DNA from: Escherichia phage UPWr_E1
Sequence record: PP418985.1
Strand: one strand, 5' to 3'
Length of the DNA: 64,000 nucleotides
Shown here: in pieces, positions 11,876 through 19,176 of the stretch
How positions within the stretch are numbered: position 1 is the stretch's first letter
Layout: the number at the start of each line of letters is the position of its first letter
Program-made: the position numbers and the translations under genes
Notes under the pieces: model-generated
Database searches by the model: none
What the model was told of the DNA's origin: nothing
What the model saw: only the letters and a program-made list of their open reading frames with translations

Positions 11876-14419
11876 ATGTCTAACAAAATCAATGTATTAC
11901 ATCAAACAGAAGGTCCGGTTTATGGTTCCGTTGGTCGTCCACTTCTGTTAAAGATTGTTGTCAGTACAGCAGATTTTAAAGATTTTATAGCAGAATGGAA
12001 GCTGAACGGTGTAAATGTGCCAGCAGAACAAATTTCCGACGCGGATCAGTCTCTGTATATTGAGGAAATGCGAGAAAATCAATTTGGTACATATACATGT
12101 CACATTAAACTGAAAGACGAACCACAGGTCGGTGTAGATATTAAGCCTATTCTTGTACAGCGTAGATTTTTTATTGCACCGCAAGATCAGTCTCCGACGT
12201 ATATTAAAAAACGAATCGGCGAAGAATTAACCCTATTCGCAACACCAGCAATTGAACTAGGTCAACACCCAGAGTTTCAATGGTATCGAAATCATATTCC
12301 GGTAGAACCAGAAAAAATCGAGGACAACCGAACCGTTCATATTGCCCGTGTTGGTCTTATTGATTTTGGCAATTATACGTGTCGTGTTACTGTCCGTGGT
12401 GAACCAGCATCACAATATTGGATTAATCCAATTATTGTAGAAAAGAATGATACCCCTCCTGTAGTGCATCTTAGCGAAGAATATCCTAGCTCTATTACAG
12501 TAGCAGAGGATTCAGCGGTACATCTCAATGTACTTGTTACATCAGATGATAAAGTATCGCCTATTGAGTATACGTGGATTCATAACGGTAGGATTGTTAT
12601 CGAAGAAAACGGAAACTCTTTGGCAATTCCGCATATTCGAAAAGATCAGGAAGGTATCTGGCGTCTTGAGGTAAAACAAGGTGACACTACGGTGTATTCT
12701 AAAGATTGTCATATTGAGGTTGATAGTCAACCATTCTTTAGGATCACACGTCAACCGCAAACTCTTAACGTGTCTGGCGGTGCTTTGGGTTTATTCAGCG
12801 TTGATTATAGAACAAACTATTCACCTGTAAAGATCCAGTGGTATCGTAAAAAGAATACAGAACAGGAGTTTACACCAATTGTAGGTGAGACTAATAAAGA
12901 TCTTCATATTACACCAGCTACTACTGAATTAAACCGAGCACGCTACAAAGCTCGTATCACGTATGGCACAGACCAATACAGAGATTCAGAAGAAGCTGAA
13001 TTGCTAGTAGGTGAAGCATTAACTATTAGAATCACCAAACAACCACAAGCTCTACAAAACGTCCGAGTTTCTTCCTCACAGACGATCACTTGTGAAGCTG
13101 AAACAAACTATGAACATTATCGCTTAGATTATCAGTGGTATAAAGATAACGAATTAATGCCAGGCAAAACATCTAATGTATTGCACTTCTCATCAATCAA
13201 AAAGACAGATGAGGGGCAATATAAGTGTATTGCATCAATGGGTATTTCTGGTCATCGAATTACCGCAGAATCATCACCAGCACAGGTGACAGTAGACAAT
13301 TCAAAGGCATCACTGACTATCACTAAACAGCCAACTGGTGCAACAATTCGCACTGGTGGGTCGTGGTCTATTTCGGTCGAAGCAACATCAAACGATGCAC
13401 TACCGATTCGCTATCGCTGGTTTAAAGACGGCGAAGATCTATTCCCACAAGGCGTTGAACAAAAAAACGTTTACGGTGAAGACCATGCTCAACCTGATTC
13501 GACTGGTGTATATACTTGTCGCGTTTCGGTTGGTTTTGGTGATCACCGAGCGTCTCAAATGTCACATCCAGCAAGGGTGCTAATTAGCGATAATGTGGAA
13601 ATTGTGCCGAATGACTTACAGGTCACCGCACATCCTCATGATAATGACGTTAAGTATAATCAGCGTGTTATCTTAACAGCAAGATCTCAAAATAGCATCG
13701 GGTTAAAACCACATATTCAATGGAAAAAGGATGGTGTTGCTATTCCGGGTGCAAATTCAGAGACTTTAGTCATTGAGCACGCGAAACCATTGGATGCAGG
13801 GGTTTACACCGCAGATATTACCGCAGCAGAAAAAACGGTAACAACCAATCCGGCTACAGTTACTGTAGCAGAGCACAGCAATATTAATATCTTAAAACAT
13901 CCAGTGGATGTGGTTGCAAAAGAAGGACAAACCACCGACATTGTATTGGAAGCTCATGCGGAACATTCTGACGGTGAAACCGAAGTTAGTTATCAGTGGC
14001 ATAAAATTAAAGATGGCGTAGACACTGAAATAAGAGATGCAACAAATAAAACTTTAGTTATCCCTCATGCACAGATCAGCAAGCAAGCTCATCAAGCGAC
14101 CTATTACGCCGAGATAAAAGAAGAGAATGGACACGTTAAACATAGCGAAAAAGTTCGAGTGGTGTTTACTACCGCGAAATTAAAACGCTATGTTCACCCG
14201 ATCCCGTGGCGACGTACATCCTTCCAGTATCAAGGCTATTGGGTTATGGATGAGATTGATCGCTGTAATCGTGAAGGGCTTAACTGGCTTGAGGACTTTA
14301 CGCACACCAAATATCCAGAAGAGATCGAAACTATTGCTGCATCATTGCATCATTATTCAAATACTCATGTATTAGAATCTCGTAATGGTTATCTGGTTGA
14401 TGGTACTCAACTATTTTAA
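11876..14419 (+). CDS. hoc: Hoc-like outer capsid protein with expanded Ig-like array (847 aa)
   Basis: C-terminal YVHPIPWRRTSF...WVMDEI...ESRNGY matches the T4 Hoc capsid-binding domain (YVHPLPHR...GWWVMDEI...ESRNGY); upstream repeated Ig-like modules of about 90-100 aa with YTC-x-V motifs. Confidence 0.85.
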   Translation: MSNKINVLHQTEGPVYGSVGRPLLLKIVVSTADFKDFIAEWKLNGVNVPAEQISDADQSLYIEEMRENQFGTYTCHIKLKDEPQVGVDIKPILVQRRFFIAPQDQSPTYIKKRIGEELTLFATPAIELGQHPEFQWYRNHIPVEPEKIEDNRTVHIARVGLIDFGNYTCRVTVRGEPASQYWINPIIVEKNDTPPVVHLSEEYPSSITVAEDSAVHLNVLVTSDDKVSPIEYTWIHNGRIVIEENGNSLAIPHIRKDQEGIWRLEVKQGDTTVYSKDCHIEVDSQPFFRITRQPQTLNVSGGALGLFSVDYRTNYSPVKIQWYRKKNTEQEFTPIVGETNKDLHITPATTELNRARYKARITYGTDQYRDSEEAELLVGEALTIRITKQPQALQNVRVSSSQTITCEAETNYEHYRLDYQWYKDNELMPGKTSNVLHFSSIKKTDEGQYKCIASMGISGHRITAESSPAQVTVDNSKASLTITKQPTGATIRTGGSWSISVEATSNDALPIRYRWFKDGEDLFPQGVEQKNVYGEDHAQPDSTGVYTCRVSVGFGDHRASQMSHPARVLISDNVEIVPNDLQVTAHPHDNDVKYNQRVILTARSQNSIGLKPHIQWKKDGVAIPGANSETLVIEHAKPLDAGVYTADITAAEKTVTTNPATVTVAEHSNINILKHPVDVVAKEGQTTDIVLEAHAEHSDGETEVSYQWHKIKDGVDTEIRDATNKTLVIPHAQISKQAHQATYYAEIKEENGHVKHSEKVRVVFTTAKLKRYVHPIPWRRTSFQYQGYWVMDEIDRCNREGLNWLEDFTHTKYPEEIETIAASLHHYSNTHVLESRNGYLVDGTQLF

Positions 14420-14463
14420 TATTATTGGTCGCCCTTCGGGGCGACCTTAACGGAGTTATTTTT

Positions 14464-15696
14464 ATGGCATTTACAGTAGCACTAAAATCAAATAAAAAAT
14501 GTTTCCTTGCTGGCGATACATTTAAATTAACGGCTACATTAGCTGGGGTGGAAGATGGTCCGGTCCCATCAAATGTTACCTATGCATGGACTAAAAATGA
14601 TCAGCCAATTGAAAATGAATCAAATGTATTAACGGTCTCTAACGCAACAGCCGAGAGCGCCGGAAAATATAAAGTATCCGTTACTGACACAGACACACAA
14701 GAAGTGGTAGAATCTGCGGTTGTGTCAATGGCAGAAGCAGAATTAGTAGTTAAAATTAATCATCCATCTAGCTACGTCGCATTCGATGAGGCGGTAGAAT
14801 TAACAACTACGGTTTCATATTCAACCGGATTTGCACCGTCTAGCAATTACCAGTTGCATTATAAATGGGAACAAGATCAAACAAATTTAAACCATAGCGA
14901 AAGCACATTATCGATCAGCAACTTCGTCGATGACAACAATGGCGTTTATAAGGTTACTGTATGGGGCGAGTCAGAAACATCAGCGGACAGCGCCAGTGTT
15001 AAACTTGCAGCAATCTCTATATCTGTAGTTGAAGATGTACCACTGGCAAAAACCGTCGCAATGGGTAAACCGATCACACTACCTTATCGCACGATGGGTG
15101 TTTCTATCGGTGACACGTCAGGTCTTCCGGCATTATCAACTAAACAGTCATGGTATTTGCAGCGAGAAGGACAACCGCGCCCGACACTGATCGGGAGTGA
15201 GGTTGGGGAGGCATTGGAAGGGTTTTCTATCATGCCTAACGGCTATTTGCACAAAGAAGCTGCAACAATGGACGACACCGCTAACTTTTGGTGTATCGTA
15301 GAGTTGCTTCAAGAAATTGACGGGCAGCCAGTACCAATCGAAGAAAAAGGTAGCTCTCATTGCGCACTGGAAGTTGTAGAATCACTTCATAAGATGTTCC
15401 GGTATGTGCACCCGATCCCGTGGCGCAAAACTTCGTTTATCTATATTGGATGGTGGGTATTCGACGAGATCGTTAAATTCAATGAGGCAGGGTTAGAATG
15501 GAGAAACCGTGAAGTTTACGAGGATAGCAAATATGCAAGCGACATCGAGACGATCGCGGCAGCGGAAGAAAAATATAGTGATTGCACTTGCATGGAATCT
15601 CGCAATGGTTTCATGTATCAGTCCAAAGAGTTCCATAAACTGGACCGAGAGACATTAGAGCGTGTCCTGCGCATTCGTGAAACGCCTCCTGCTTAA
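14464..15696 (+). CDS. Second Hoc-like paralog (about 410 aa)
   Basis: C-terminus FRYVHPIPWRKTSF...GWWVFDEI...ESRNGF is homologous to the Hoc capsid-binding domain; Ig-like N-terminal modules. ATG 14464 preferred because the track start at 14425 lies inside a hairpin. Confidence 0.8.
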   Translation: MAFTVALKSNKKCFLAGDTFKLTATLAGVEDGPVPSNVTYAWTKNDQPIENESNVLTVSNATAESAGKYKVSVTDTDTQEVVESAVVSMAEAELVVKINHPSSYVAFDEAVELTTTVSYSTGFAPSSNYQLHYKWEQDQTNLNHSESTLSISNFVDDNNGVYKVTVWGESETSADSASVKLAAISISVVEDVPLAKTVAMGKPITLPYRTMGVSIGDTSGLPALSTKQSWYLQREGQPRPTLIGSEVGEALEGFSIMPNGYLHKEAATMDDTANFWCIVELLQEIDGQPVPIEEKGSSHCALEVVESLHKMFRYVHPIPWRKTSFIYIGWWVFDEIVKFNEAGLEWRNREVYEDSKYASDIETIAAAEEKYSDCTCMESRNGFMYQSKEFHKLDRETLERVLRIRETPPA

Positions 15697-15707
15697 TGAA
15701 ATCTATC

Positions 15708-15736
15708 AGCCATCCTTCGGGGTGGCTTTTTTGTTT
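15708..15736 (+). terminator. Rho-independent terminator after the hoc paralogs
   Basis: agccatcc-ttcg-gggtggct hairpin followed by a T-run. Confidence 0.65.
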
Positions 15737-15743
15737 TTAGTGC

Positions 15744-15771
15744 TTGACAGTGTGATTTAGTGGCTTATAAT
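15744..15771 (+). promoter_or_regulatory. Sigma70-like promoter
   Basis: TTGACA, 16-nt spacer, TATAAT. Confidence 0.6.
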
Positions 15772-15891: not shown

Positions 15892-16089
15892 ATGAATGAG
15901 ATTGTACGATTGATCAAAGAAACACCAATCGAGATGTATTTTCTGGCTTTGGTTGCAACAATGGTCTATCAGCTAGTCGCATGTCATGTATGGAAATCAG
16001 AAAATGCGTTTATCCGGTTTTTTGGTACTGTCATGATCCAGTTTCCGGTACTGATCACTATCCTGTTAATCGTCAATGAGGCGAAGTAA
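15892..16089 (+). CDS. Small hydrophobic protein (65 aa)
   Basis: ORF with hydrophobic segments; overlaps the next ORF at its stop/start. Confidence 0.45.
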   Translation: MNEIVRLIKETPIEMYFLALVATMVYQLVACHVWKSENAFIRFFGTVMIQFPVLITILLIVNEAK

Positions 16090-16364
16090 TGGACAAGAAA
16101 ACAGCGTTAATGGTTTACATGCTACGCGAAGACCACGGTCTTAATTTTGTTGATATTGCTAAAAAGATTGGCGGGTTCAGCGGACAAGATGCGGCTAAGG
16201 CATGGTTGATGGTAAAAGATGCACGAGAGGCTTACGCCAACCGTGAAAAGGTTGTTTATCGTAAACACCACATCAACAAAAAATTTAAAAATAAAGTTCA
16301 AAAACGTGTTGACAAGCCAAATAACACTGTTATAATGGACGCATTCAAACGGGCAATGTCCTGA
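16089..16364 (+). CDS. Hypothetical basic protein (91 aa), possible DNA-binding
   Basis: Translationally coupled ORF; basic C-terminus (KKFKNKVQKR); function not established. Confidence 0.45.
   Translation: MDKKTALMVYMLREDHGLNFVDIAKKIGGFSGQDAAKAWLMVKDAREAYANREKVVYRKHHINKKFKNKVQKRVDKPNNTVIMDAFKRAMS
16309..16336 (+). promoter_or_regulatory. Sigma70-like promoter inside the 3' end of the 91-aa ORF
   Basis: TTGACA, 16-nt spacer, TATAAT; upstream of the ORF at 16411. Confidence 0.55.
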
Positions 16365-16410
16365 TTTGTAATTAATATTCTGAATAACTAATCAATAGAG
16401 GTGACTAATT

Positions 16411-16848
16411 ATGAAATTCCGCAAAAACCACGTAGCAATGAAAAAAGCAATGTTTGAAGCATTCAAAGCAGTTGATCAGGGCGGTGTTACTCTGATTGAG
16501 CAAATTAATGTTGATGTTTGGCAGTCTCCGGCGATCACTTGCTCACGTCTGGCGACGGCTGGTCTTCTGAATGTTCACAGCTCTACAGCATACGACGAAG
16601 CATTGCAAGTTATTAAGGCTTTCGCTGGCGACGTTACCAGCAAGTGGGTCTATGAGAATAAAGGTGAAATTGCGGTTGCTCACGTAGGCAACAATATCCA
16701 GATGGAAATCAAGATTAAGGAAGGGTCTAAACGCAATCAGATGCTTGTTCGCTTCCAGCCATACAAAACTAACGTAGTGCCGGATGATCTGGTCATCTCT
16801 AAGAGTAATGTTACCATTCGCCGAAATCAGATCGTTATCAACAAATAA
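16411..16848 (+). CDS. Hypothetical protein (145 aa)
   Basis: ORF with GAGG Shine-Dalgarno; terminator immediately downstream. Confidence 0.55.
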   Translation: MKFRKNHVAMKKAMFEAFKAVDQGGVTLIEQINVDVWQSPAITCSRLATAGLLNVHSSTAYDEALQVIKAFAGDVTSKWVYENKGEIAVAHVGNNIQMEIKIKEGSKRNQMLVRFQPYKTNVVPDDLVISKSNVTIRRNQIVINK

Positions 16849-16857
16849 TTAACATTA

Positions 16858-16882
16858 GCCGTCCTTCGGGGCGGCTTTTTTG
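16858..16882 (+). terminator. Rho-independent terminator
   Basis: agccgtcc-ttcg-gggcggct hairpin followed by ttttttg. Confidence 0.65.
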
Positions 16883-16935
16883 TATATATCATTAACATAA
16901 TTTTAGTTTACATATGCACATTATTAATACAGTTT

Positions 16936-17007
16936 GATTAAATTATGATCAAAACGAAGAAAGATCTTTAGAACATAGAAAATGTATCTTTGATTAATTA
17001 TTAATCA
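16936..17007. repeat. Intergenic 72-bp repeat, copy A
   Basis: gattaaattatgatcaaaacgaagaaagatctttagaa...attaatca; first 25 nt identical to copy B; contains palindrome aaagatcttt. Confidence 0.7.
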
Positions 17008-17084
17008 CCACATATTGTAACGCAAATGTTATACTCCGTAGGAGTTCGCGAAGCGATATCCTTTTGTGTAGTTTTTACATATAT

Positions 17085-17156
17085 GATTAAATTATGATCA
17101 AAACGAAGACTTATCTTATAGAATAATAAAAATTTGTTTCGAACATTTATTAATCA
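17085..17156. repeat. Intergenic 72-bp repeat, copy B
   Basis: gattaaattatgatcaaaacgaagacttatcttatagaataataaaaatttgtttcg...attaatca; 149 bp downstream of copy A. Confidence 0.7.
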
Positions 17157-17265
17157 ATTACTAGAAGTGTTTTATTGCTCGCTGTGCTCGCTTCCGCTAC
17201 GCGGATACTTGTATTTGTTATTAACTTGTAGTATGATATTGCTTTCTATGGAGGAAAATATTATG

Positions 17266-17850
17266 TTTGACCAGTTACAAGATCTATTTGGAGTAAAACC
17301 ACTTCGTAGATGTGCTTTAATCGGCTCTAGAAAAGCGCCTAGCGACATTTTGATAATGGCTAGTACCATTGGGAGGGTATTGTCAGAAAATCGCGTTGTA
17401 GCGCATTCTGGAGGGGCTTACGGTATGGACAATGCTTTCATGAAGTATTACGATCCAGATTATAGAAAAATTTTCATTCCAAATTGGAAGTTTTATGACC
17501 ACAAGCATAACGGTCATGATGTGATTGCATGGCAAACCTTAGAACAAAAGAATCTGGCGATGGATGAATTAGAACACGTTTATGATAATCCTCGTTCTAT
17601 ACCGTTATACATGCAAAATTTATTTTCTAGAAATGTTGCTCAAGTCTTAGGTGAGACACTTGATGATCCTGTAGATTGTGTGTTATTCTGGGCGAAAGAA
17701 GTTAATGGAATCGTTTCGGGAGGAACTCGAATTGCTGTTTATGTTGCCCGTAGACATGGGATACCATGTTTTAACTTATATCATCAAGAAAATAGATCCG
17801 CCGTCGAAAAAATCTTGGGCGGATCTGATTTGTCTTGGTTAGATATTTAG
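17266..17850 (+). CDS. DprA/SLOG-like Rossmann-fold protein (about 195 aa)
   Basis: ATG at 17266 with GGAGG Shine-Dalgarno (the track's longer ORF from 17134 runs through the repeat). Motifs IGSRKAP and HSGGAYGMD resemble the DprA/Smf and LOG-like Rossmann core; assignment is by motif only. Confidence 0.4.
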   Translation, partial: FDQLQDLFGVKPLRRCALIGSRKAPSDILIMASTIGRVLSENRVVAHSGGAYGMDNAFMKYYDPDYRKIFIPNWKFYDHKHNGHDVIAWQTLEQKNLAMDELEHVYDNPRSIPLYMQNLFSRNVAQVLGETLDDPVDCVLFWAKEVNGIVSGGTRIAVYVARRHGIPCFNLYHQENRSAVEKILGGSDLSWLDI

Positions 17851-19092
17851 TTAAGCGTTGTCAATCTCAAGTGGTGGCAGTTCGATTCCTAAAATGTAGG
17901 ACATTTCAGAGCGTCCAGCCATTTTACCCCAATCGTCACCCTTGATGATCTGGTGTTCTTCCTGATCAACTTTTGATGTATATGGGTTGACAGAGAGTGA
18001 ATAACGATTCATAATAGCTACATGATGCTGGAAGCTATTAGGATCAATTACGCTCTTATACGCGCCAGCGCCATCGGCTTCTGTGTATGGGGAGTAGAAC
18101 AGCGAACCTACGCTCTCCATATCACCGATCATGTGCTTACAGCCAACTAGCATATAATCGAACGGCGTTACCGTGTCTGCGTACACTTCCAGACCGCAAC
18201 GTAGACGTCCTTCGCTTAGAGCGTTGTCGGTTTCTTCCATCCATCCGGTAGACTGCAACAGACCAACTACGCGAGAAGATGCTAAAACGTATGTGCCAGC
18301 AAAGGAGGAAGTACGCAACATTTGATTGCTCATTTCGCAAGCATAGCGGTAAAGTTCACGAGCTTGTTTTGGTGCATCCTGAACGCCAACGAGAGAAAGT
18401 ACACCATCAGTGGTGATTCCTTTAATTTTATAGCGAGTTGATACAGTGATCAACTTCTGCATAATATCTTTGTTGATCTCTTCGGAAGCGACAGTAGCCA
18501 GAAGGTCGATCACAGAATTTTCAGAATTGATTTGGCTTGCCTCAAGATCCTGCATTAATTCAGTGGTGAACGAGGTTTTCAGTTTACGAGAACCTACATT
18601 AACTTGCCACTTGTCAAACTGCATAGAGGTAGACGCAATTTCGGTGTTTTTATCTTCAAAGTATTCTACCGATGCACAATCGCTATAGAAACGAATTTTG
18701 TTTGTCATTACGCCTTTAAAGATCGCAGCTTCTGGAGTTGCGGAATCTTCGCTAACTCGACCAGCAACAACAGCTTGATAAACTACGTCGCCAGATTTAA
18801 ACAGATCACCGATCTTGTATTCTTTTTCCTGTGAAAATTCTTCGATCTCTGTACGATCACCAGCCGCGCCACCGTAGGTTGCAGCAGTTCGGAAAGTCAT
18901 CTGACCATCACGATTAAGATAACGTAGGCCGTACAATGCAGATACTGGTTGATCCGTTGGCTGGATTGCTACCAGATCAGAGAAAATCAGGTTGTTTACC
19001 GCGCGAGTTAATGATAATAGTTGCGGTCGCGCTGTCTGGTTAGCTACTGAGGAAGTAGATTCCCGCAACAGTTCAGTAAAAATATGAGTCAT
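17851..19092 (-). CDS. 24: Capsid vertex protein gp24
   Basis: Matches remembered T4 gp24 N-terminus (ELLRESTxx..RP.L..LTRA...LI.SD.VA.Q.T.QPV.A.YG..YLN); about 413 aa from ATG 19092 (T4 gp24 427 aa); late promoter upstream. Confidence 0.85.
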   Translation of the reverse strand: MTHIFTELLRESTSSVANQTARPQLLSLTRAVNNLIFSDLVAIQPTDQPVSALYGLRYLNRDGQMTFRTAATYGGAAGDRTEIEEFSQEKEYKIGDLFKSGDVVYQAVVAGRVSEDSATPEAAIFKGVMTNKIRFYSDCASVEYFEDKNTEIASTSMQFDKWQVNVGSRKLKTSFTTELMQDLEASQINSENSVIDLLATVASEEINKDIMQKLITVSTRYKIKGITTDGVLSLVGVQDAPKQARELYRYACEMSNQMLRTSSFAGTYVLASSRVVGLLQSTGWMEETDNALSEGRLRCGLEVYADTVTPFDYMLVGCKHMIGDMESVGSLFYSPYTEADGAGAYKSVIDPNSFQHHVAIMNRYSLSVNPYTSKVDQEEHQIIKGDDWGKMAGRSEMSYILGIELPPLEIDNA

Positions 19093-19129
19093 GTTTATGA
19101 ATCCTGTATTTGCCTTAATGGATATATCA

Positions 19130-19137
19130 TATTTATA
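19130..19137 (-). promoter_or_regulatory. T4-type late promoter (TATAAATA) for gene 24
   Basis: tatttata on plus strand, 38 nt upstream of the gene 24 ATG. Confidence 0.55.
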
Positions 19138-19145
19138 CAAAAAGA

Positions 19146-19169
19146 AAAGGGAATCCCGAAGGATTCCCA
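19146..19169 (-). terminator. Rho-independent terminator ending the inserted cassette
   Basis: Minus-strand gggaatcc-ttcg-ggattccc hairpin followed by a U-run. Confidence 0.6.
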
Positions 19170-19176
19170 AATAAAA

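What the first reader, a model, noticed from the sequence alone, without database searches (positions are those of the whole stretch)
17266..17850. DprA/SLOG-like Rossmann protein adjacent to gene 24
The about 195-aa protein has IGSRKAP and HSGGAYGMD motifs reminiscent of DprA/Smf and LOG-like nucleotide-binding Rossmann folds. It occupies the position where T4 has rnlB and the small 24.x ORFs, and sits just downstream of two 72-bp repeats. Such domains appear in nucleotide-processing and DNA-modification contexts.
Basis: inference. Interest (0 to 1): 0.5.

Follow-up and report, generated by a model that had tools for sequence, protein, structure and literature searches.

The report
Phage stand-alone DprA-like SLOG protein
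This is a real, well-conserved gene of an RB49-like coliphage that encodes a small nucleotide/DNA-binding domain related to the bacterial DNA-uptake protein DprA; public databases already label it that way, but nobody has shown what it does.

The parts
17263..17850 (+). Coding sequence of the 195-aa stand-alone DprA-clade SLOG domain protein, orthologue of Phi1 ORF164. Motifs: GSR aa 21-23 (nt 17323-17331), SGGAxGxD aa 49-56 (nt 17407-17430), RNxxQ aa 123-127 (nt 17629-17643), GGT aa 153-155 (nt 17719-17727).
17250..17254 (+). Shine-Dalgarno GGAGG, 8 nt upstream of the ATG.
   Evidence: conserved in Phi1, L013 and L014
17209..17237 (+). Sigma-70-like promoter candidate TTGTAT-N17-TATGAT. The -35 is weak (3/6) and the -10 is 5/6. 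The -10 and the spacing are conserved in the divergent relative L014. No T4-type late promoter TATAAATA occurs in 16000-17900.
   Evidence: This is inference; the consensus scan did not list the site.
17193..17205 (+). Small hairpin TCCGC-TAC-GCGGA immediately upstream of the promoter candidate. L014 carries TCGGC-GTA-GCCGA, a compensatory C:G to G:C change. The stem-loop plus promoter resembles a PeSL module.
   Evidence: PeSL concept from PMC2839356
16935..17007 (+). Direct repeat, copy 1 (73 nt).
17084..17156 (+). Direct repeat, copy 2 (73% identical to copy 1; first 25 nt identical).
16857..16876 (+). Intrinsic terminator of the upstream gene (ORF165 homologue). It marks the start of the 386-nt intergenic region.
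17794..17826 (.). 9-bp GC-rich hairpin (AGATCCGCC / GGCGGATCT, 15-nt loop) embedded in the 3' end of the ORF. On the minus strand it is followed by TATTTTCTT, so it is a likely terminator for convergent gene 24. The arms are identical in L014 despite dS 0.79.

Best explanation
The gene encodes a minimal, stand-alone SLOG domain of the DprA clade. It keeps the DprA-type phosphate-binding pocket: the GSR loop with R23, SGGAxGxD with D56, RN with R123/N124, and the GGT loop with T155. It has lost everything that makes DprA a RecA loader. I infer that it is a non-essential accessory protein, probably made early from a sigma-70-type promoter in a hyperplastic region. I infer that it works by binding a nucleotide unit, most likely in single-stranded nucleic acid or in an ADP-ribose/AMP-bearing nucleotide attached to it. 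In that role it would support or target enzymes that reverse host-inflicted damage to phage nucleic acids: the NADAR/AdfN-type DNA de-ADP-ribosylase, ligases and nucleases. It is not a recombination mediator and not a LOG-type phosphoribohydrolase. What is shown: the fold, family membership, which residues are conserved or lost, purifying selection, and the recurrent fusions and neighbours. What is inferred: the ligand, the timing, and the counter-defence or repair role.
For: 2. Binding residues. The arginines needed for ssDNA binding are HpDprA R52/R143, equivalent to ShosA R139/R234 (PMC12961424). They map to R23 and R123, which are invariant in 33 family members.
3. Not LOG-like. The Glu of the PGGxGTxxE motif corresponds to an invariant A158.
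4. Two-domain fusions of bona fide family members. NADAR-SLOG occurs in three separate 50%-identity clusters, and the NADAR part also hits the gp30.3 family. DUF4326-SLOG occurs twice. RecJ(DHH/DHHA1/OB)-SLOG occurs once. Polyvalent proteins combine NADAR with other SLOG paralogues.
5. NADAR function. gp30.3/AdfN is an experimentally shown anti-DarTG1 DNA de-ADP-ribosylase of T-even phages (PMC11825919).
6. Neighbours. rnlB lies immediately upstream in 3 of 32 family clusters. NamPT lies within 6 kb in 4 of 32. NADAR or DUF4326 neighbours occur in 4 more loci.
7. The recombination role is already covered. Krischvirus has its own mediator set: uvsX, uvsY, 32 and 59.
8. Setting. The gene sits among terminator-plus-promoter (PeSL-like) modules typical of facultative genes.
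Against: There are no biochemical or genetic data for this family. Family pI ranges from 5.0 to 9.5, and the window protein has pI 6.4 and net charge -2, which is unlike a generic ssDNA coat protein. The R123-equivalent arginine is reported as a ligand-binding residue in at least the LOG enzyme Cg1261 and in YAcAr ORF83. Its conservation therefore does not separate a DNA ligand from a small-molecule ligand. DprA and ShosA need dimerisation for function, and that interface could not be assessed here. The RecJ fusion is a metagenomic singleton, and the AlkB-like hit in a polyvalent protein is below the Pfam cut-off. Domains in polyvalent proteins may act independently. The NAD-salvage neighbours (NamPT, Nudix, RyR, NMNAT-like) fit a soluble ADP-ribose ligand at least as well. 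Early timing rests only on promoter-like sequence.
Confidence: 0.4

Rival explanations
1. A binder or hydrolase of a soluble NAD+-derived nucleotide. On this view the SLOG domain sequesters or cleaves ADP-ribose-type immune signals or toxic metabolites (cADPR isomers, ADPR derivatives). It would work together with NADAR, DUF4326, Nudix and NAD+-reconstitution enzymes. This is the published prediction for viral SLOG domains.
Against: The nearest relatives by sequence and structure are ssDNA binders (DprA, ShosA), not ThsA or LOG. The LOG catalytic Glu is replaced by an invariant Ala. Krischvirus has no NamPT. NADAR is now known to act on ADP-ribosylated DNA, so the NADAR fusion no longer points specifically to soluble ligands. 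Only about a quarter of the family clusters show any NAD/ADPr-linked neighbour.
Confidence: 0.3
2. An accessory factor of RNA ligase 2 in RNA (or nick) repair. The SLOG protein would bind or prepare RNA ends or adenylated intermediates for Rnl2.
For: The homologue lies directly downstream of rnlB, overlapping or abutting it, in Gelderlandvirus, Jiaodavirus-like and Slopekvirus-like phages, with an HNH insertion between them in Lychee. Some records even name it 'RNA ligase'.
Against: All rnlB-linked cases are T4-like phages that share one syntenic block, so this is probably a single historical event. Only 3 of 32 clusters show it. T4 has rnlB without this gene (general knowledge). Krischvirus has this gene without rnlB. 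Most family members in other phage groups have no ligase nearby.
Confidence: 0.1
3. A true DprA-like recombination mediator, as the database label says. It would bind ssDNA and load a recombinase (UvsX or host RecA).
For: The PHROG and RefSeq name. Conserved ssDNA-binding arginines. ShosA, another DprA-like protein, binds RecA.
Against: The protein scores below the Pfam gathering threshold and far below TIGR00732 (14 against 191 bits). It lacks the SAM domain, the C-terminal part of the DprA Rossmann domain (the alignment stops at HpDprA residue 179 and the protein ends about 20 residues later) and the DML1 domain. The phage already encodes UvsY, the dedicated UvsX mediator. For the more distant SLOG protein ORF83, others found no RecA-interaction residues.
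Confidence: 0.07
4. An antitoxin mimic. The phage domain would substitute for the DprA-like antitoxins ShosA or PsyrA and keep the ShosTA or PsyrTA abortive-infection toxins silent.
Against: The PADLOC matches cover only aa 15-60, the same generic motif region that matches every DprA. ShosA requires its SAM domain, its dimer interface and helix alpha14, all of which are absent here. The family is far more widespread than would be expected for a specific mimic.
Confidence: 0.05

Closest known systems
DprA/Smf (Pfam PF02481, TIGR00732), e.g. H. pylori DprA 4LJK/4LJR, R. palustris 3MAJ, S. pneumoniae 3UQZ
   Different: About 20% identity. Below the family cut-offs. No SAM domain, no C-terminal DprA segment and no DML1 domain. 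A family-specific insertion of about 40 residues between strand 3 and the RN helix. Encoded by a lytic phage that has UvsY.
ShosA / PsyrA, the DprA-like antitoxins of the ShosTA and PsyrTA defence systems (8ZVA, 9VZO)
   Same: DprA-type SLOG core with the same arginines. Linked to phage-host conflict.
   Different: ShosA has a SAM domain, a dimerising helix alpha14 and a partner PRTase toxin. None of these is present here.
PHROG 768 and the viral SLOG domains surveyed by Iyer, Burroughs, Anantharaman and Aravind 2022 (PMC9503650)
   Same: This protein is a full-length member of PHROG 768. It shares the reported fusions to NADAR and DUF4326.
   Different: That survey describes viral SLOGs as mostly YpsA-like. 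This family is nearest to DprA (29 of 33 members hit PF02481). No experiment exists for either.
DruSM1 ORF83, whose knockout sensitises the phage to AVAST type III
   Same: SLOG superfamily. Same order of motifs: GGRD, HGDAxGxD, RN and PGGxGT. It is the only phage SLOG protein with a defence-related phenotype that my literature searches turned up.
   Different: I located it as PP596835 NGRRMQZB_95, 130 aa. It is Pfam YAcAr/DUF2493 (E 1.6e-18). hhalign does not detect it with this family's profile (probability 0.6%). It is a different SLOG family, so its phenotype cannot be transferred.
LOG cytokinin riboside 5'-monophosphate phosphoribohydrolases (5WQ3, 9US2)
   Different: The catalytic Glu of PGGxGTxxE is an invariant Ala here. 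There is no Pfam LOG hit.

Membership tests
SLOG superfamily (SMF/DprA-LOG Rossmannoid domains) | Three-layer alpha/beta Rossmannoid fold shared with DprA, LOG, YpsA, the MoCo carrier protein and the ThsA C-terminal domain | tested here: met
SLOG superfamily (SMF/DprA-LOG Rossmannoid domains) | Gly-rich or polar loop after strand 1, plus conserved motifs after the later strands that contact the nucleotide phosphate | tested here: met
   GSR, SGGAxGxD, RN and GGT are invariant in 33 sequences.
PHROG 768 (phage 'DprA-like DNA recombination-mediator protein') | Full-length profile match | tested here: met
   E 2e-60, 204.6 bits, aa 15-187 against profile positions 4-181 of 191.
DprA/Smf (PF02481 / TIGR00732) | Score above the curated family cut-off | tested here: not met
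   PF02481 22.3 bits against 29.6, covering aa 15-60 only. TIGR00732 14.4 bits against 191.15.
DprA/Smf (PF02481 / TIGR00732) | Rossmann core with the two ssDNA-binding arginines (HpDprA R52, R143) | tested here: met
   R23 and R123 are invariant. The mapping comes from hhalign and from the verified 4LJK sequence.
DprA/Smf (PF02481 / TIGR00732) | C-terminal part of the DprA domain beyond the last core strand, and the flanking SAM and DML1/winged-helix domains found in most DprA proteins | tested here: not met
   The protein starts 14 aa before strand 1 and ends about 20 aa after the last aligned strand. hhalign covers HpDprA residues 40-179 only.
DprA/Smf (PF02481 / TIGR00732) | ssDNA binding, dimerisation and loading of RecA | not testable with these tools
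   Needs EMSA, AUC and recombinase assays.
LOG phosphoribohydrolases (PF03641) | PGGxGTxxE motif with the catalytic Glu | tested here: not met
   The motif reads SGGTRIA. The Glu position is A158, invariant in the family. There is no Pfam LOG hit.
YAcAr/DUF2493 SLOG family (includes DruSM1 ORF83) | Profile match to PF10686 or to ORF83 | tested here: not met
   No PF10686 hit in 33 members. hhalign of A2 against ORF83 gives probability 0.6%.
ShosA/PsyrA antitoxins | SAM plus DprA-like architecture and an adjacent PRTase-type toxin gene | tested here: not met
   The PADLOC matches are partial, aa 15-61. No SAM domain is present. The neighbours are ORF165 and gene 24.

The most novel reading that the evidence does not exclude
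The stand-alone DprA-like SLOG domain may be a reader, or even an N-glycosidic eraser, of ADP-ribosylated or otherwise base-damaged single-stranded phage DNA. It would work beside gp30.3/AdfN (NADAR) against DarT-type DNA ADP-ribosyltransferases and related DNA-targeting defences. That would explain why the same domain is fused to NADAR, DUF4326 and RecJ, and why it sits next to ligases.
Probability: 0.15. Interest if true: 0.65.

Novelty: already known. Interest (0 to 1): 0.3.

Why it matters
The family is among the more widespread phage accessory domains with no tested function. It has over 4,300 clusters at 50% identity and occurs in 1,342 phage genome records, including therapeutic coliphage, Klebsiella and Pseudomonas lineages. 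Its database name, 'recombination mediator', is probably misleading. If it proves to be a counter-defence or DNA-damage-reversal module, it would add a component to the phage toolkit against ADP-ribosylation and NAD+-based immunity. It would also matter for predicting the host range of T4-like therapeutic phages. As a discovery from this window, however, it only re-finds an annotated gene.

Tried and rejected
1. I tried to link this protein to the anti-AVAST III gene ORF83 of phage DruSM1. I looked in 9g and CAjan and found no family member. I then found Dru_SM1 itself and identified ORF83 by its published residues R89/N90/T112/D114. It is a YAcAr/DUF2493 protein that this family's profile does not detect. 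The link is rejected.
2. Rfam scan of the 386-nt upstream region gave only a sub-threshold TarB hit over the upstream terminator (22 against 80 bits). No known RNA is there.
3. I tested whether the 73-nt repeat is a dispersed element. There are only two copies in the 64 kb window.
4. The BFVD fold search returned only uncharacterised phage proteins and DprA-like labels, with no functional lead.
5. The cluster look-up of the fusion proteins returned unnamed metagenomic singletons.
6. A paper on structural modelling of viral signal-sequestering proteins does not mention SLOG or DprA. The RyR/RyDEP paper does not either.
7. The word-index homology search reached only 6 and then 32 relatives. The exhaustive HMMER search was needed to see the real size of the family.
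8. The LOG-like hydrolase idea is rejected because the catalytic Glu is missing.

Full report
**What is there.**
Window 17263-17850 (+) is an ORF of 195 codons plus a TAG stop. GGAGG lies 8 nt upstream of the ATG. The finding's start coordinate (17266) is off by one codon. Everything else it describes is present: IGSRKAP at aa 20-26, HSGGAYGMD at aa 48-56, and a convergent gp24-like capsid-vertex gene at 17851-19170 whose stop codon directly abuts this gene's stop. Two 73-nt direct repeats (73% identical) lie at 16935-17007 and 17084-17156 in a 386-nt intergenic region. The first 25 nt of the repeats are identical, and that 25-mer occurs nowhere else in the window.

**Which phage.**
The region is 95-96% identical in DNA to RB49-like coliphages of the genus Krischvirus (Phi1, GEC-3S, JSE, ECD7 and others). 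The protein is 100% identical to one in Krischvirus LF73P4 and 99.5% identical to one in JSE. In Phi1 it is ORF164, and RefSeq already names it 'DprA-like DNA recombination-mediator protein'.

**It is a real gene.**
Against four Krischvirus-type orthologues, dN/dS is 0.04-0.11, including one orthologue at dS 0.79.

**What the protein is.**
- PHROG 768 matches over the full length (E 2e-60).
- Pfam DNA_processg_A is the only Pfam hit. It covers aa 15-60 only and is below the gathering score (22.3 against 29.6 bits). TIGR00732 dprA scores 14 against 191 bits.
- 29 of 33 family members give the same sub-threshold DprA hit and only 2 hit LDcluster4, so DprA is the nearest curated family.
- An AlphaFold2 model built on a 33-sequence alignment is confident (pLDDT 94.1).
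- hhalign of the family profile against the H. pylori DprA sequence gives 91.5% probability over 140 columns, aa 15-173 against DprA 40-179. I checked that sequence against PDB 4LJK first.

The protein is therefore a SLOG-superfamily domain of the DprA clade.

**What it keeps and what it lacks.**
Invariant positions in 33 diverse members are G21 S22 R23, S49 G50 A52 G54 D56, R123 N124 Q127 and G153 G154 T155 A158. A recent structural study of ShosA names HpDprA R52, R143 and R170 as the ssDNA-binding arginines, equivalent to ShosA R139, R234 and R261. The first two are essential for ssDNA binding and antitoxin function (PMC12961424). With the +4 offset between the 4LJK sequence index and the paper's numbering, these are the Arg of GTR and the Arg of ARN. 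They align with R23 and R123. The third corresponds to a non-conserved position.

The protein consists of the Rossmann core only. It has no SAM domain, no C-terminal continuation of the DprA domain and no DML1 domain. It carries a family-specific insertion between strand 3 and the RN helix. The LOG catalytic Glu (PGGxGTxxE) corresponds to the invariant A158, so a LOG-type phosphoribohydrolase mechanism is unlikely. Family pI varies from 5.0 to 9.5, and this protein has pI 6.4.

**Size and distribution of the family.**
An exhaustive HMMER search of 1.84 billion representatives found 4,315 clusters at E up to 1e-3, nearly all stand-alone proteins of about 160-200 aa. tblastn found the family in 1,342 phage records, including Klebsiella, Pseudomonas, Escherichia, Aeromonas, Vibrio and Acinetobacter phages.

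**Fusions.**
Among the multi-domain hits:
- Three separate clusters are NADAR-SLOG two-domain proteins, and their NADAR part also hits the T4 gp30.3 family.
- Two proteins are DUF4326-SLOG.
- One is RecJ (DHH, DHHA1, OB)-SLOG.
- Two proteins of about 1,480 aa combine this domain with YAcAr, LDcluster4 and NADAR.
- Another polyvalent protein has a sub-threshold AlkB-like hit.

The fusion proteins are unnamed metagenomic sequences, and the RecJ fusion is a singleton.

**Neighbourhoods.**
I fetched 80 IMG/VR loci and clustered their family proteins into 32 groups at 55% identity. I then scanned three genes on each side against Pfam.
- Upstream, the commonest families are RNA ligase 2 (all in T4-like phages), NamPT, DUF4326, NADAR, NUDIX, DUF1937 and a cytidylyltransferase-like protein.
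- Downstream, the commonest is the gp23/gp24 fold, which reflects T4-like synteny.
- Local tblastn and HMM searches put rnlB immediately upstream in 3 of 32 clusters and NamPT within 6 kb in 4 of 32. NADAR or DUF4326 are neighbours in four further loci.
- In Pakpunavirus PaoP5 the gene lies about 1 kb downstream of a prs-like gene and NamPT. In Slopekvirus-like Lychee it lies between rnlB-HNH and NamPT.

The complete Phi1 genome has uvsX, uvsY, 32, 59, rnlA, pseT, 30.3, alt, modB and a further ADP-ribosyltransferase, but no rnlB and no NamPT. The two genes are separable, however, and their adjacency is probably one inherited arrangement.

**Literature.**
- Iyer et al. 2022 surveyed viral SLOG domains. 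They noted the fusions to Macro, NADAR and DUF4326 and predicted action on ADP-ribose derivatives (PMC9503650).
- T4 gp30.3 has since been shown to be AdfN, a NADAR that counters DarTG1 (PMC11825919).
- Phage RyR-domain proteins next to NARP1 degrade cADPR signals.
- The only defence-linked phenotype for a phage 'DprA/Smf' protein that my searches found is DruSM1 ORF83. Its deletion sensitises the phage to AVAST type III, and EVADES modelled it as an AMP binder. I located ORF83 in PP596835 by its published residues. It is a YAcAr/DUF2493 protein (PF10686, E 1.6e-18) that this family's profile does not detect. Its phenotype cannot be transferred.

**Mechanism.**
The fold, the retained pocket, the lost DprA-specific parts, the missing LOG Glu, the purifying selection and the recurrent associations are shown. 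The rest is inferred. My preferred reading (confidence about 0.4) is a non-catalytic, or at least non-LOG-type, binder of a nucleotide unit. The ligand is most likely in single-stranded nucleic acid, or is an ADP-ribose/AMP-bearing nucleotide attached to it. The protein would act as an accessory module alongside enzymes that reverse damage to phage nucleic acids.

The reasons are these. Its nearest relatives bind ssDNA with exactly the arginines conserved here. Its simplest fusions are to enzymes that act on ssDNA or on DNA adducts (NADAR/AdfN-like, RecJ). The phage already has UvsY for recombinase loading.

The main rival (0.3) is the published prediction of a soluble ADP-ribose-type ligand. 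The NAD-salvage neighbours and the variable pI favour it. An Rnl2 accessory role (0.1), a true recombination mediator (0.07) and a ShosA/PsyrA antitoxin mimic (0.05) are less likely, for the reasons given in their entries.

**Expression.**
The gene is on the strand opposite to late genes 23 and 24. It lies downstream of an intrinsic terminator (16857-16876). It is preceded by a small hairpin (17193-17205) with a compensatory change in a divergent relative, and by a TTGTAT-N17-TATGAT promoter-like site (17209-17237) whose -10 is conserved. No TATAAATA late promoter lies within 16000-17900. Stem-loop plus sigma-70 promoter units (PeSLs) are the known hallmark of the hyperplastic regions of RB49 and Phi1 (PMC2839356). 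Early expression is plausible but untested.

**Verdict.**
The finding is a correct reading of a real gene. The same gene already carries the same label in RefSeq, belongs to a named PHROG, and falls within a class of viral domains already discussed in the literature. It is therefore already known as a feature, and its function is experimentally open. Interest is 0.3.

Noticed in passing
window 11876-14419 and 14425-15696 (+): Two tandem Hoc-like ORFs with Ig-like repeats, 847 aa and 423 aa. They share a C-terminal domain of about 90 aa (RYVHPIPWR..TSF.Y.G.WV.DEI ... IETIAA ... ESRNG). Phi1 has a single hoc of 404 aa at this place, so this phage appears to carry an extra, much longer head-decoration paralogue.
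   Followed up: no
window 17794-17826 (inside the 3' end of the SLOG ORF): A 9-bp GC-rich hairpin, AGATCCGCC / GGCGGATCT, with a 15-nt loop. On the minus strand it is followed by TATTTTCTT. It is a likely intrinsic terminator for convergent gene 24, possibly bidirectional, and it is embedded in coding sequence. The arms are identical in relative L014 although synonymous divergence is 0.79. The two convergent genes have adjacent stop codons with no spacer.
   Followed up: partly
window 17041-17066 and 17178-17205: Two short GC-rich blocks in the otherwise AT-rich 386-nt intergenic region are conserved even in the divergent relative L014. The hairpin TCCGC-TAC-GCGGA shows a compensatory C:G to G:C change there. 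The first repeat copy (16935-17007) is not in the L014 stretch I aligned. The function is unknown; a regulatory stem-loop or PeSL-like element is possible.
   Followed up: partly
window 15708-15771 and 16309-16336: A perfect-consensus sigma-70 promoter (TTGACA-16-TATAAT) at 15744-15771 lies directly after a GC-rich terminator at 15708-15727. A second perfect promoter with an extended -10 lies at 16309-16336, inside the end of the 24.3-like ORF. Both look like the PeSL cassettes described for RB49 and Phi1.
   Followed up: no
L095 (Escherichia phage Dru_SM1, PP596835) 18641-19033: The published anti-AVAST III gene 'ORF83', described as DprA/Smf-like, is NGRRMQZB_95. It has 130 aa and is annotated 'GTP-binding domain' (PHROG 289). 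It is a YAcAr/DUF2493 SLOG protein. CAjan gp82 carries the same 'GTP-binding domain' annotation at the corresponding position and is probably its counterpart. The 'GTP-binding' label looks wrong.
   Followed up: yes
L090 3643-7983, L046 3319-7128, L052 55-8631 (IMG/VR contigs): Very large (1,269-2,858 aa) phage proteins contain one copy of this SLOG domain. Pfam recognises almost nothing else in them, apart from a sub-threshold AlkB-like 2OG-Fe(II) oxygenase hit in L090. They may be polyvalent proteins with undescribed domains.
   Followed up: partly
L006 2969-3487 (Klebsiella phage Lychee): An HNH endonuclease gene is inserted exactly between rnlB and the SLOG gene. The two are otherwise contiguous in related phages, which suggests a homing-endonuclease insertion at this junction.
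   Followed up: no
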